Shown piece after piece: positions 48,710 to 48,929 of a DNA stretch of 64,000 nucleotides. The stretch is from a virus (taxonomy: Duplodnaviria > Heunggongvirae > Uroviricota > Caudoviricetes): the IMG/VR virus record IMGVR_UViG_2925897562_000001; one strand, written 5' to 3'. Under the pieces are notes generated by a model. The model made no database searches. It was not told the origin of the DNA and worked only from the letters and a program-made list of their open reading frames with translations. Position 1 is the first letter of the stretch, and every line of letters starts with the position of its first letter. The position numbers and the translations under genes were made by a program.

Positions 48710-48735
48710 AAAAAAACGCCCACCCGAAGATGGGC
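48710..48735 (-). terminator. intrinsic terminator with UUCG tetraloop
   Basis: minus-strand RNA GCCCAUC-UUCG-GGUGGGC followed by G and U7; 185 nt downstream of dmt stop. Confidence 0.6.
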
Positions 48736-48901
48736 AAACTGGAAGCTCGTAACGCACTTCGGTGTTGCCACTTAGGCGTATGGTCAACCTGGCAACTCGG
48801 CGTCATGAGGGGGAAGGAGTCACTACCCCGCCATACTTGCCGCCGCGCCTGTCGCGGCTAACAGCTAAATCGCTCTATAAATCACGATTCATTGAGGCGA
48901 T

Positions 48902-48929
48902 ATTACACTAATAAATTTATTAGAGCAAT
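48902..48929. promoter_or_regulatory. inverted overlapping pair of C1 operators with embedded leftward promoter
   Basis: minus strand ATTGCTCTAATAAATTT (17/17) and plus strand ATTACACTAATAAATTT (15/17); TTGCTC -35, 17-bp spacer, TAATAT -10 reading leftward; overlaps dmt stop. Confidence 0.7.

What the first reader, a model, noticed from the sequence alone, without database searches (positions are those of the whole stretch)
48710..48929. C1-operator-controlled promoter driving a ~180-nt structured leader or sRNA ending in a UUCG-tetraloop terminator
A perfect consensus C1 operator (17/17) overlapped by an inverted second operator sits on the dmt stop codon. Its TTGCTC (-35) and TAATAT (-10) are spaced 17 bp and read leftward. 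About 185 nt downstream is a strong intrinsic terminator (GCCCAUC-UUCG-GGUGGGC plus U7). The interval has only junk ORFs and contains stable hairpins (GCCGCG-ACAG-CGCGGC; 7-bp GUUGCCA/UGGCAAC stem). This suggests a repressor-controlled small RNA, or an attenuated leader gating the tRNA-plp-ban operon in lysogens.
Basis: partly seen in the sequence, partly recalled or inferred. Interest (0 to 1): 0.5.

Follow-up and report, generated by a model that had tools for sequence, protein, structure and literature searches.

The report
Conserved structured leader of P1 ban operon
The flagged site is the long-known repressor-controlled ban promoter of a P1/P7-type phage, but its about 185-base leader carries a widespread folded RNA domain, apparently undescribed and absent from Rfam, that always sits just before a transcription terminator and probably controls whether transcription continues.

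Summary
The window is a P7-like phage-plasmid (98.8% identical to P7). The site is the annotated C1-controlled Pban promoter with its bipartite operator Op72ab. A strong intrinsic terminator lies about 183 nt downstream.

The promoter and operator are already known. The P1 GenBank record also already labels part of the leader a "dicF-like region".

What is new is what the hairpins are. They belong to a ~100-120-nt RNA domain of three to four helices plus a pseudoknot. About 82%-identical copies sit immediately upstream of the DicF small RNA in lambdoid prophages, in 4,423 of 5,426 complete E. coli genomes. Copies also occur in Citrobacter, Erwinia, Serratia, Trabulsiella and Izhakiella, and in isolated phages (Ayreon, cdtI, mEp460).

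- Covariation supports the fold: 96% of cells paired, and 16 pairs changed on both sides versus 5.9 in shuffles.
- No Rfam 15 family matches the domain.
- It is not detectably related to the HK022 or HK639 put RNAs.
- Nearly every copy is followed within ~45-135 nt by a hairpin and U-tract, while the sequence in between varies.
- In several phages with no annotated N gene the domain lies 285-750 nt after the cI-like repressor gene or PL, the nutL/putL position.

Best reading (about 0.4): a cis-acting leader that controls read-through of its terminator. Main rival (about 0.3): a scaffold for a DicF-type small RNA.

The parts
48913..48929 (-). C1 operator Oban-a (former Op72a), ATTGCTCTAATAAATTT, 17/17. 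It contains the dmt stop codon TAA at 48920-48922.
   Evidence: Exact match. Annotated as a monovalent C1 operator in P1 and P7. The dmt ORF ends at 48920.
48902..48918 (+). C1 operator Oban-b (former Op72b), ATTACACTAATAAATTT, 15/17. It is inverted and overlaps Oban-a.
48900..48928 (-). Promoter P1ban: -35 TTGCTC (48923-48928), 17-nt spacer, -10 TAATAT (48900-48905). The inferred start is near A48893/A48892.
   Evidence: Read from the sequence. It corresponds to 'sigma 70 promoter P1ban' in AF234172. The start site is an inference; no transcript data were available.
48914..48945 (-). Position of the predicted second promoter P2ban: -35 near 48940-48945, -10 TAAATT at 48914-48919.
   Evidence: Mapped by homology from the P1 annotation 'predicted sigma 70 promoter P2ban'.
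48866..48891 (-). 5' hairpin of the leader (AAUCGUGAUUUAUAGAGCGAUU). It is specific to P1-type copies.
   Evidence: Minimum-free-energy fold. Invariant among P1, P7 and SJ46, so covariation cannot test it.
48751..48870 (-). Conserved structured RNA domain, the 'pre-DicF / ban-leader' domain. This is the full covariance-model match; the paired core is 48764-48858.
   Evidence: Model R1 gives 95.9 bits, E = 2e-24, and this is the only copy in the window. Homologous copies lie upstream of DicF. Covariation is shown. No Rfam family matches.
48842..48858 (-). Helix P1 hairpin, GCCGCG-ACAGG-CGCGGC.
   Evidence: helix 2: 96.4% paired, with changes on one side only.
48798..48842 (-). Helix P2. The base is CGGC (48839-48842) paired with GCCG (48798-48801). 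The apical hairpin is GGGG...CCCC (48809-48830), with a pyrimidine-rich loop.
   Evidence: The base pair C-G in P7-type copies versus U-A in P1 and Qin copies covaries. The apical stem has 3 pairs changed on both sides (helices 3 and 5).
48831..48836 (-). Pseudoknot 5' strand, GUAUGG, in the internal loop of P2. It pairs with 48778-48783.
   Evidence: 99.3% paired. GUAUGG/CCAUAC becomes GCAUGG/CCAUGC in P1 phage (helix 4). RNAalifold also predicts this helix.
48764..48796 (-). Helix P3 hairpin, GUUGCCA/UGGCAAC, with an almost invariant 19-nt loop AGGUUGACCAUACGCCUAAG. The loop contains the pseudoknot 3' strand CCAUAC (48778-48783).
   Evidence: 6 of 8 pairs changed on both sides (helix 6). The loop is invariant across 73 copies.
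48742..48760 (-). Linker with a weak hairpin, GAAG-UGCGUUACGAG-CUUC. It occupies the slot that holds the DicF body in lambdoid copies.
   Evidence: No DicF match in Rfam at E<=1.
48710..48737 (-). Intrinsic terminator: (U)GCCCAUC-UUCG-GGUGGGC(G) followed by U7.
   Evidence: Terminator scan and hairpin energy. It is retained in phage D6, whose upstream leader differs.
48245..48709 (-). Conserved ~465-nt untranslated spacer between the terminator and tRNA-Asn.
   Evidence: 96-100% conserved in P1-like plasmids and phages. No Pfam hit for its small ORFs. No convincing Rfam hit.
48091..48244 (-). tRNA-Asn (48169-48244) and tRNA-Thr (48091-48166), the first cargo of the operon.
   Evidence: ARAGORN and Rfam.
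44522..45892 (-). ban (DnaB-type helicase), the distal gene controlled from Pban, ~3 kb downstream.
   Evidence: Pfam DnaB_C and DnaB. The P1 and P7 operator notes read 'controls expression of ban'. No promoter is annotated in between in P1.

Best explanation
The site is the known C1-repressed Pban promoter with its bipartite operator Op72ab, in a P7-like phage-plasmid.

Once C1 repression is lifted, the transcript begins with a leader of about 183 nt that has three parts:
1. A short 5' hairpin.
2. A conserved pseudoknotted RNA domain of about 100 nt (helices P1, P2, P3 and a loop-to-internal-loop pseudoknot).
3. About 30 nt later, a strong intrinsic terminator.

The domain is homologous to the one that precedes the DicF small RNA, or other terminator hairpins, in the early-left operons of lambdoid phages and prophages.

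I propose that the domain acts in cis on the transcribing complex. Most likely it binds a host component such as RNA polymerase. That would let a fraction of polymerases read through the adjacent terminator and the long untranslated tRNA region, and reach ban. Transcripts that do stop yield a DicF-position small RNA as a by-product.

Shown here: the promoter and operator identity, the terminator, the homology, the conserved fold, the constant pairing of domain with terminator, and the position of the domain in the operons. Inferred: the start site, the need for read-through, and the antitermination mechanism.
For: **Identity**
- 98.8% identical to P7 and 96% to P1.
- The annotations name P1ban, Obanab/Op72ab and a 'dicF-like region'.

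**Homology**
- Window 48760-48857 is ~82% identical to the stretch directly 5' of Rfam-confirmed DicF in Qin-type prophages.
- It is found in 4,423 of 5,426 E. coli genomes, at 9,485 places.
- Canonical DicF is found at only 7,244 places, so the domain is the more widespread of the two.

**Fold**
- On 73 distinct copies from seven genera, 95-96% of cells pair.
- 13-16 pairs changed on both sides, against 5.3-5.9 in shuffles (0 of 500 shuffles reach the observed value) and 0-5 in slid controls.
- G-U pairs in the outer helix P0 fix the strand as the one co-oriented with ban and DicF.
- Loops and junctions are nearly invariant, which suggests a conserved host partner.

**Coupling to a terminator**
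- 82 of 85 distinct downstream contexts have a hairpin plus T-run 44-136 nt after P3. Two of the three exceptions visibly have a longer hairpin plus T-run.
- The intervening sequence ranges from canonical DicF, through unrelated hairpins, to almost nothing in P1/P7.

**Need for read-through**
- No promoter is annotated between Pban and ban in the densely annotated P1 record.
- The first plausible coding sequence lies more than 1.4 kb from the start site.

**Position**
- In Ayreon, cdtI and contig L056 the domain lies 285-370 nt after PL or the cI stop codon. In the Erwinia prophage it lies about 750 nt after the cI-like repressor gene.
- No N gene is annotated in Ayreon, cdtI or mEp460, and no PHROG hit to one was found among the ORFs scanned in L056.
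- In those contexts (mEp460, Ayreon, cdtI, L056, the Erwinia prophage) the domain lies ahead of the early-left genes, the place nutL or putL occupies.
Against: - There is no experimental evidence for read-through control, and no transcript data for this leader.
- The domain is not related to the only known RNA-only antiterminators. The model finds nothing in HK022 or HK639, including the annotated putL-like RNA. Local alignment is not significant.
- In Qin-type prophages the domain lies after ydfABC rather than next to the promoter.
- The literature explains DicF production by termination plus RNase E/III processing, without invoking antitermination.
- No antiterminator pairing is conserved between P1-type and lambdoid copies (by inspection).
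- Unannotated internal promoters could feed the tRNAs and ban.
- Phage D6 keeps the terminator but has a different leader, with only a weak 13-bit model hit.
Confidence: 0.4

Rival explanations
1. Small-RNA biogenesis module. The conserved domain is a folding, processing or stability scaffold for a family of terminator-ended, Hfq-type small RNAs, comprising DicF and its variants. In P1/P7 the product would be a C1-repressed RNA acting in trans, either the full ~183-nt form or a shorter processed 3' fragment. Read-through into the tRNAs would be incidental leakage.
For: - The domain always precedes a terminator hairpin with a U-tract.
- In Qin that hairpin is the experimentally known DicF, whose 5' end is cut by RNase E ~25 nt after the domain.
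- The P1/P7 terminator has a U7 tail and a U-rich stretch (CAGUUU) just upstream, as Hfq-binding small RNAs do (the Hfq comparison is from my own knowledge).
- P1/P7 share an 11 of 12 nt stretch (CAGTTTGCCCAT in P1/P7, CTGTTTGCCCAT in the variant) with one DicF variant, L014/L129.
- The P1 authors called the region 'dicF-like'.
Against: - The conserved part is the upstream domain, not the supposed effector. The DicF slot is the most variable part and is nearly empty in P1/P7.
- There is no Rfam DicF match at E<=1, and the UUUCUGGUGA and UUUGGCGG motifs are absent.
- A pseudoknotted four-helix domain with invariant loops is far more elaborate than known RNase E guide hairpins.
- DicF expressed from a plasmid without its native context is functional.
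Confidence: 0.3
2. Riboswitch-like conditional attenuator. The domain is an aptamer for a small molecule or host factor. Ligand binding would decide whether the downstream terminator forms.
For: - A covarying multi-helix fold with a pseudoknot and invariant unpaired nucleotides, directly followed by an intrinsic terminator, is the classic riboswitch signature.
- The GGU of the P2 base can pair in two ways: with ACC (my P2 base) or with GCY next to the pseudoknot (RNAalifold). That leaves room for a conformational switch.
Against: - The distance from domain to terminator varies from ~30 to more than 100 nt, and the linkers are unrelated.
- I found no alternative pairing between the domain or linker and the terminator arms that is conserved in both P1-type and lambdoid copies.
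- The domain matches none of the 4,227 Rfam families.
Confidence: 0.12
3. Independent trans-acting structured RNA. The excised or terminated domain would bind and titrate a host protein early in lytic growth, for example a nuclease, an RNA chaperone or a defence sensor, alongside the phage tRNAs.
For: - Invariant loops suggest a conserved host partner.
- The domain is expressed only on derepression, in both P1-type and lambdoid contexts.
- The closing helix P0 is present where the domain is embedded in long transcripts and absent where it lies at the 5' end.
- It is co-transcribed with tRNA genes, which are often linked to counter-defence (that link is from my own knowledge).
Against: - No direct evidence.
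- No similarity to known protein-sponge RNAs in Rfam.
- The strict coupling to a downstream terminator is not required by this model.
Confidence: 0.1
4. No function of its own. The leader would simply be a relic of a lambdoid dicF region recombined into the P1 lineage, and the terminator would end dmt read-through.
For: - The ban operon of this phage holds two separate pieces homologous to the dicF-dicB untranslated region. That is consistent with acquisition by recombination.
- The terminator lies about 185 nt past the dmt stop codon.
Against: - Compensatory changes maintain all helices across seven genera, and also between P1 and P7 themselves.
- Loops are invariant while the flanks diverge. 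A decaying relic would not show this.
Confidence: 0.05

Closest known systems
Pban / Op72ab (Obanab) of phages P1 and P7
   Same: It has the same sequence, position (on the dmt stop codon) and bipartite inverted operator. The promoter hexamers are identical to the annotated P1ban.
   Different: Nothing differs. This part of the finding is already known.
dicF locus of Qin-type lambdoid prophages (DicF sRNA, Rfam RF00039) and the 'dicF-like region' note in the P1 GenBank record
   Same: - The ~100-nt domain is homologous (~82% identical).
- In both, the domain is followed by a terminator-ended segment and then co-oriented genes.
- A second module, STnc100-like and resembling the dicB 5'UTR, is also shared.
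   Different: - The homology lies in the region upstream of DicF, not in DicF itself.
- The DicF slot in P1/P7 has no Rfam DicF match and lacks the DicF seed motifs.
- P1/P7 copies lack the closing helix P0 and the boxA-like motif found in lambdoid copies.
put RNAs of HK022 and HK639 (cis-acting, protein-independent processive antiterminators; PMC9378689)
   Same: - It is a structured RNA between an early, repressor-controlled promoter and the first terminator, in phages with no annotated N gene.
- Its size is similar to the annotated HK639 putL-like RNA, which is 126 nt.
   Different: - No sequence or structure similarity: the best model hits have E of about 2-3 and do not overlap put, and local alignment is not significant.
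- put is a two-stem V-shaped RNA with a triplex. This domain has three to four helices and a pseudoknot.
- Its function has not been tested.
Lambda-type nut sites (boxA plus boxB, with N and Nus factors) and rrn boxA antitermination
   Same: - It occupies the same position in the early-left operon.
- Lambdoid copies carry a boxA-like GUGCUCUYUUCG just 5' of the domain, and a GC-rich 5-bp hairpin with an A-rich loop.
   Different: - No N gene is annotated nearby.
- The boxA-like motif is imperfect, and it is absent from the P1/P7 leader RNA.
- The domain is far larger than boxB.
Leader-derived regulatory RNAs of P1/P7 (C4) and P4 (CI), Rfam RF01695
   Same: These are also phage leader RNAs that are structured and tied to premature termination or immunity. 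P1 already uses one such RNA at immI (from my own knowledge).
   Different: There is no Rfam C4 match at E<=1, the locus is different, and no antisense target site was found in the window.

Membership tests
P1-family C1 operator and promoter Pban (Op72ab) | 17-bp asymmetric consensus ATTGCTCTAATAAATTT | tested here: met
   17/17 at 48913-48929 (-). The window holds 14 sites, against 0.3 expected.
P1-family C1 operator and promoter Pban (Op72ab) | Bipartite operator: a second, inverted, overlapping copy, with the promoter hexamers embedded, at the 3' end of dmt | tested here: met
   15/17 inverted copy at 48902-48918. The hexamers and position are identical to the P1 and P7 annotation.
DicF sRNA (Rfam RF00039) | Match to the DicF covariance model at or above the gathering score of 48 bits | tested here: not met
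   No DicF match at E<=1 in window 45500-49500. The same search gives 75-77 bits in Qin-type loci.
DicF sRNA (Rfam RF00039) | Terminator-ended segment immediately 3' of the conserved upstream domain, inside a repressor-controlled operon | tested here: met
   Alignment A1 and the terminator scan.
DicF sRNA (Rfam RF00039) | Hfq-dependent base-pairing repression of ftsZ, xylR and pykA | not testable with these tools
   This needs experiments. The DicF 5' motifs UUUCUGGUGA and UUUGGCGG are absent from the window sequence.
put antiterminator RNA (HK022 / HK639) | Sequence or structure homology to putL or putR | tested here: not met
   Model R1 finds nothing better than E = 1.7-3 in the HK022 and HK639 DNA searched, and nothing at putL. 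Smith-Waterman scores are within the shuffled range.
put antiterminator RNA (HK022 / HK639) | Two-stem, V-shaped RNA of about 70 nt | tested here: not met
   Covariation supports P1, P2 (base and apical), P3, a pseudoknot and, in lambdoid copies, P0. The put architecture is described.
put antiterminator RNA (HK022 / HK639) | Located between an early promoter and the first terminator in a phage lacking N | tested here: met
   P7-like window, Ayreon, cdtI, mEp460 and L056.
put antiterminator RNA (HK022 / HK639) | Acts in cis on RNA polymerase (beta' zinc-binding domain) to suppress pausing and termination | not testable with these tools
   This requires transcription assays.
Lambda-type nut site | boxA (CGCUCUUA / UGCUCUUUA) followed by a boxB hairpin, with a cognate N protein encoded nearby | tested here: not met
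   A boxA-like GUGCUCUYUUCG occurs only in lambdoid copies and not in the window's leader RNA. No N gene is annotated, and none was found by PHROGs, next to the domain.
Transcriptional riboswitch | Conserved aptamer-like fold with covariation and invariant junction and loop nucleotides | tested here: met
Transcriptional riboswitch | Expression platform in which part of the aptamer competes with the terminator stem, conserved across members | tested here: inconclusive
   The spacing is variable (44-136 nt) and the linkers are unrelated. By inspection, no shared alternative pairing exists between P1-type and lambdoid copies. Two competing pairings of GGU exist inside the domain.
Any Rfam 15 family | Covariance-model match over the domain | tested here: not met
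   No match at E<=1 over window 48751-48870, or over the Ayreon and Qin copies.

The most novel reading that the evidence does not exclude
The domain is a new class of cis-acting, RNA-only processive antiterminator, functionally analogous to HK022 put but unrelated to it. It would be shared by P1-family phage-plasmids and by a large group of lambdoid phages with no annotated N gene.

If so, it would explain how transcription passes the DicF terminator to reach dicB and the recombination and excision genes. It would also explain how Pban transcripts cross a strong terminator and more than 1.4 kb of untranslated RNA to reach ban. DicF-type small RNAs would then be the terminated by-products of this switch.
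Probability: 0.3. Interest if true: 0.8.

Novelty: new variant of a known kind. Interest (0 to 1): 0.55.

Why it matters
Only one protein-independent antiterminator RNA family (put) is known in enterobacterial phages. If this domain is a second, unrelated one, it is present in more than 80% of E. coli genomes and in the classic phage P1. That would change how early-operon control is understood in lambdoid phages with no annotated N gene.

It would also revise the account of how DicF and DicB are made. Both affect cell division, metabolism and EHEC virulence.

Even if the domain is only a scaffold for small-RNA production, three points stand:
- It defines the true conserved unit of the dicF locus.
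- It shows that the DicF slot is a variable cassette.
- It links the P1 ban leader to that system.

The fold is well enough defined, including a testable pseudoknot, to be probed directly with compensatory mutants.

Tried and rejected
- **Rfam.** E-value searches over the window region and over the Ayreon and Qin copies found no family for the domain. The weak tmRNA, miRNA and YrlA hits are chance or reflect the tRNAs.
- **Homology to put.** Model scans of HK022 and HK639, blastn-short and shuffled Smith-Waterman were all negative. The shared 8-9-mers (CGCGACAG, GCGCGGCGG) are not significant.
- **Single-sequence folding.** z-scores of -1.6 and -2.1 are not convincing on their own.
- **RNAalifold.** It gave a different nested solution, keeping the GUAUGG/CCAUAC helix and dropping P3. 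I read this as evidence that the two helices are pseudoknotted, because P3 has the strongest covariation.
- **Trans target of the P3 loop.** No second or complementary copy occurs in the window.
- **N-like protein.** The small ORF between PL and the domain in Ayreon is not arginine-rich.
- **Coding explanation.** Rejected because of the frame-shifting indels.
- **Extra terminators downstream in the lambdoid operons.** The simple scan is blind to long-loop hairpins, so this was inconclusive.
- **Papers I could not read.** Lobocka 2004, Faubladier & Bouche 1994 and Murashko & Lin-Chao 2017 are not held. The 1994 paper may already describe extended homology around dicF.
- **Literature searches.** Searches for a P1 ban-leader RNA, or for a structure upstream of DicF, found nothing.
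Full report
**What the window is**

The 801 bases around the finding are 98.8% identical to phage P7 and about 96% identical to P1. The leader itself is 100% identical to a 97-kb E. coli plasmid. The window is therefore a P7-like phage-plasmid.

On the minus strand the gene order is:
- dmt;
- the flagged interval;
- a ~465-nt spacer;
- tRNA-Asn and tRNA-Thr;
- a tRNA-Ser-like gene;
- small ORFs;
- an SPFH/Band-7 gene;
- a tRNA with anticodon CAU;
- ban, a DnaB-type helicase.

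**Checking the observation**

- **Operator.** The consensus C1 operator is an exact 17/17 match at 48913-48929 (-). An inverted 15/17 copy overlaps it at 48902-48918 (+). The window holds 14 operator-like sites, against 0.3 expected. The dmt stop codon lies inside the operator.
- **Promoter.** TTGCTC, a 17-nt spacer and TAATAT lie at 48928-48900.
- **Terminator.** An 8-pair stem with a UUCG loop and a T7 run lies at 48737-48710. Its energy is about -16.6 kcal/mol.
- **Hairpins.** Both are present. The first loop is ACAGG, not ACAG.
- **ORFs.** The ORFs across the interval are not conserved. The T-run is T7 here, T6 in P1 and T8 in SJ46. The P2 loop differs by 1-4 nt among copies. Any ORF on either strand would be frameshifted.

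**What was already known**

The P1 record AF234172 annotates four features at these positions:
- 'sigma 70 promoter P1ban';
- a predicted P2ban;
- the divalent C1 operator Obanab (former Op72ab, 'controls expression of ban');
- a 102-nt 'dicF-like region', starting ~95 nt downstream of the -10 and ending at the terminator.

P7 carries the same operator annotation. The promoter and operator half of the finding is therefore not new. A resemblance to the dicF region was noted in 2004. I could not read that paper or the 1994 Faubladier & Bouche paper on dicF-like sequences.

**Where the similarity really lies**

A sensitive search of 5,426 complete E. coli genomes with the leader gave 9,485 matching places in 4,423 genomes, up to 8 per genome. 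Nearly all of them cover only leader positions 44-141, which is window 48857-48760, at ~82% identity.

In Qin-type prophages the match lies between ydfC and dicB. It ends ~25 nt before the Rfam-confirmed DicF RNA. In locus L003 the domain is at 4001-4097 and DicF at 4122-4173.

The conserved unit is therefore the stretch upstream of DicF, not DicF. In P1/P7 the DicF slot is replaced by a short weak hairpin and the UUCG terminator. Rfam's DicF model does not match the window even at E<=1. Canonical DicF is found at 7,244 places in 4,011 genomes, fewer than the domain.

**Diversity and fold**

Pattern scans recovered copies from two collections:
- viral contigs;
- one genome per species, giving Escherichia, Shigella, Citrobacter, Serratia symbiotica, Trabulsiella, Erwinia tracheiphila and Izhakiella. 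Three MAGs labelled as Bacillota, Veillonella and Collinsella also matched; these look like contamination.

Seventy-three distinct copies were aligned. They support this architecture:
- a hairpin P1;
- a long helix P2, made of a 4-bp base, an internal loop and a highly covarying apical stem with a pyrimidine-rich loop;
- a hairpin P3 with an almost invariant 19-nt loop;
- a 6-bp pseudoknot between the P2 internal loop (GUAUGG) and the P3 loop (CCAUAC);
- in lambdoid copies only, an outer helix P0 that closes the whole domain into a four-way junction.

Examples of compensatory change:

| Helix | One form | Other form |
|---|---|---|
| Pseudoknot | GUAUGG/CCAUAC | GCAUGG/CCAUGC (P1 phage) |
| P2 base | CGGC/GCCG (P7-type) | CGGU/ACCG |
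| P3 | GUUGUCA/UGACAAC | GUUGCCA/UGGCAAC, and GUAACCA/UGGUUAC |
| P2 apical stem | GCGGGG/CCCCG | CUGGG/CCCAG, and CAGGUG/CACCUG |

On the MAFFT alignment, 95.3% of cells pair. Thirteen pairs changed on both sides, against 5.3 +/- 1.6 in shuffles (0 of 500 shuffles reach the observed value) and 0-5 in slid controls.

On the model-guided alignment the figures are 96.1% and 16 pairs, against 5.9 in shuffles. That alignment leans towards the model.

G-U pairs in P0 fix the transcribed strand. RNAalifold, which cannot draw pseudoknots, keeps the GUAUGG/CCAUAC helix and drops P3. That is consistent with the two being pseudoknotted. It also shows a possible alternative partner for the GGU of the P2 base.

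A covariance model built from the alignment finds exactly one copy in the window, at 48751-48870 (95.9 bits, E = 2e-24).

**Not a known RNA family**

No Rfam 15 family matches the domain in the window, in phage Ayreon or in Qin at E<=1. [quoted passage not shown] A 2025 review of phage small RNAs does not mention P1.

**Constant coupling to a terminator**

Of 85 distinct downstream contexts, 82 have a hairpin plus T-run 44-136 nt after P3. Two of the three exceptions (Trabulsiella and Izhakiella) visibly have a longer hairpin plus T-run. The third is a decayed Shigella copy.

What lies between the domain and the terminator varies widely:
- canonical DicF;
- several other DicF-like hairpins sharing UUUGGCGG;
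- long hairpins that enclose a Shine-Dalgarno sequence and an ATG;
- in P1/P7, only ~30 nt.

The invariant pair is the domain and a terminator. The small-RNA body is not invariant.

**Position in operons**

- **P1/P7.** The domain starts ~35 nt after the inferred start of a repressor-controlled promoter.
- **Ayreon, cdtI and contig L056.** It lies 285-370 nt after a near-consensus PL (TTGACA-16-CATAAT) or the cI stop codon. No ORF of 45 or more codons and no N gene lies in between. It is followed by the early-left genes down to xis.
- **mEp460.** As in Qin, the domain lies further downstream of the repressor gene, after small ORFs and just before dicB; no N gene is annotated.
- **Erwinia prophage.** It follows the cI-like repressor gene in the same way, about 750 nt downstream.
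- **Qin-type prophages.** It follows ydfABC.

This is the place that nutL occupies in lambda and putL in HK022 and HK639. Lambdoid copies also have a boxA-like GUGCUCUYUUCG directly 5' of P0. The P1/P7 leader has none.

**Is it put?**

No. The model finds nothing in HK022 or in the HK639 immunity and early region, including the annotated putL-like RNA. Local alignments with putL are within the shuffled range. put is a two-stem V-shaped RNA. Any resemblance is therefore functional and positional only.

**Why read-through matters here**

The densely annotated P1 record lists no promoter between Pban and ban, a distance of 2.6 kb. The operator note says it controls ban. In this window the first plausible coding sequence is more than 1.4 kb from the start site. 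Before it lie a strong terminator, a 465-nt untranslated spacer and the tRNA genes. From general knowledge, such untranslated RNA is also exposed to Rho.

A leader element that makes polymerase resistant to termination would fit this layout. That is an inference, not a result.

**Verdict on mechanism**

I rank the explanations as follows:

| Explanation | Confidence |
|---|---|
| Cis-acting control of read-through, with terminated transcripts as a DicF-position small-RNA by-product | about 0.4 |
| Scaffold for biogenesis or stability of DicF-type small RNAs | about 0.3 |
| Riboswitch-like attenuator, weakened by the variable spacing and the lack of a conserved alternative pairing | about 0.12 |
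| Independent trans-acting RNA | about 0.1 |
| Functionless relic, contradicted by the covariation | about 0.05 |

**Additional point bearing on origin**

A second stretch of this operon (about 47470-47330) is homologous to the segment between DicF and the dicB start codon. Both give sub-threshold Rfam STnc100 matches. The P7-type ban operon thus looks like a lambdoid 'domain - DicF slot - dicB 5'UTR' unit into which tRNA genes were inserted.

Phage D6 keeps the terminator and everything downstream of it, but has a different 1.2-kb leader. That leader gives only a weak (13-bit) model hit, driven by a P0-like frame.

**Novelty and score**

The promoter and operator are already known. The leader domain appears to be an undescribed RNA motif, widespread and well supported, of a known general kind: a cis-regulatory leader or small-RNA precursor. 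I rate the finding a new variant of a known kind, with interest 0.55. It would rise to about 0.8 if the antitermination reading is confirmed.

Noticed in passing
window 47330-47473 (-): This is a sub-threshold Rfam STnc100 match (37.8 bits, gathering score 47). The same family matches the segment between DicF and dicB in Qin. Shared blocks include GGTGAATGCGGCTAAGCGCACGCGG and CACCGGGAGGCACCCGGCAC, up to an ATAATG. It is a second piece of the lambdoid dicF-dicB untranslated region inside the ban operon.
   Followed up: partly
window 47583-47669 (-): A fourth tRNA-like gene. ARAGORN calls it tRNA-Ser (UGA). Rfam scores it as tRNA-Sec at 42.9 bits, below the cut-off of 47. It is annotated in phage D6 but not in the P7 record.
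   Followed up: no
window 46275-47102 (-): A 275-aa SPFH/Band-7 protein sits where P1 and P7 carry tciABC/terB. The cargo of the ban operon therefore differs in this phage.
   Followed up: no
window 48245-48709 (-): A ~465-nt conserved untranslated spacer lies between the leader terminator and tRNA-Asn. It occurs almost only in P1-like plasmids and in D6. About 110 nt of it (query 12-121) also match some E. coli chromosomes. It has no Pfam match and no convincing Rfam match.
   Followed up: partly
L143 (phage D6) 750-1990: D6 has the same terminator and downstream spacer but a different 1.2-kb non-coding leader. A weak model hit (13.4 bits) at 1184-1287 shares the outer P0 strands (GUUGCGGUAAU ... 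CCCCGCUGCAAC) with a different interior. This may be a divergent class of the domain.
   Followed up: partly
L139, L141, L142, L130, L054 (Trabulsiella, Erwinia, Izhakiella, Serratia and a viral contig), just 3' of the domain: In these copies the terminator-like hairpin encloses a Shine-Dalgarno sequence and an ATG. The ORF is MFYRGTA... (36 codons) in Erwinia. Its translation would run through the 3' arm of the hairpin, so translation and termination might be coupled.
   Followed up: no
Alignment A2 columns ~10-22; for example L056 7843-7854: A boxA-like motif, GUGCUCUYUUCG, lies directly 5' of helix P0 in most lambdoid copies. In Trabulsiella it reads UGCUCUUUCC. It is absent from the P1/P7 leader RNA.
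   Followed up: partly
'phages' collection hits H94-H121: The domain, with DicF-type hairpins, is present in isolated functional phages: mEp460, Ayreon, HannyBb, cdtI, 2H10, Stx2c-converting and PPompW phages, and one record named Actinobacillus phage vB_Apl-pPE4. In these records it is usually annotated as 'hypothetical protein' or not annotated. A 2016 paper stated that no sequenced phage carried DicB or DicF.
   Followed up: partly
L133, L134, L138 (MAGs labelled Bacillota, Veillonella parvula, Collinsella): These short contigs carry P1-type or Qin-type copies identical to the E. coli versions. They are most likely enterobacterial contigs binned into the wrong genomes.
   Followed up: no
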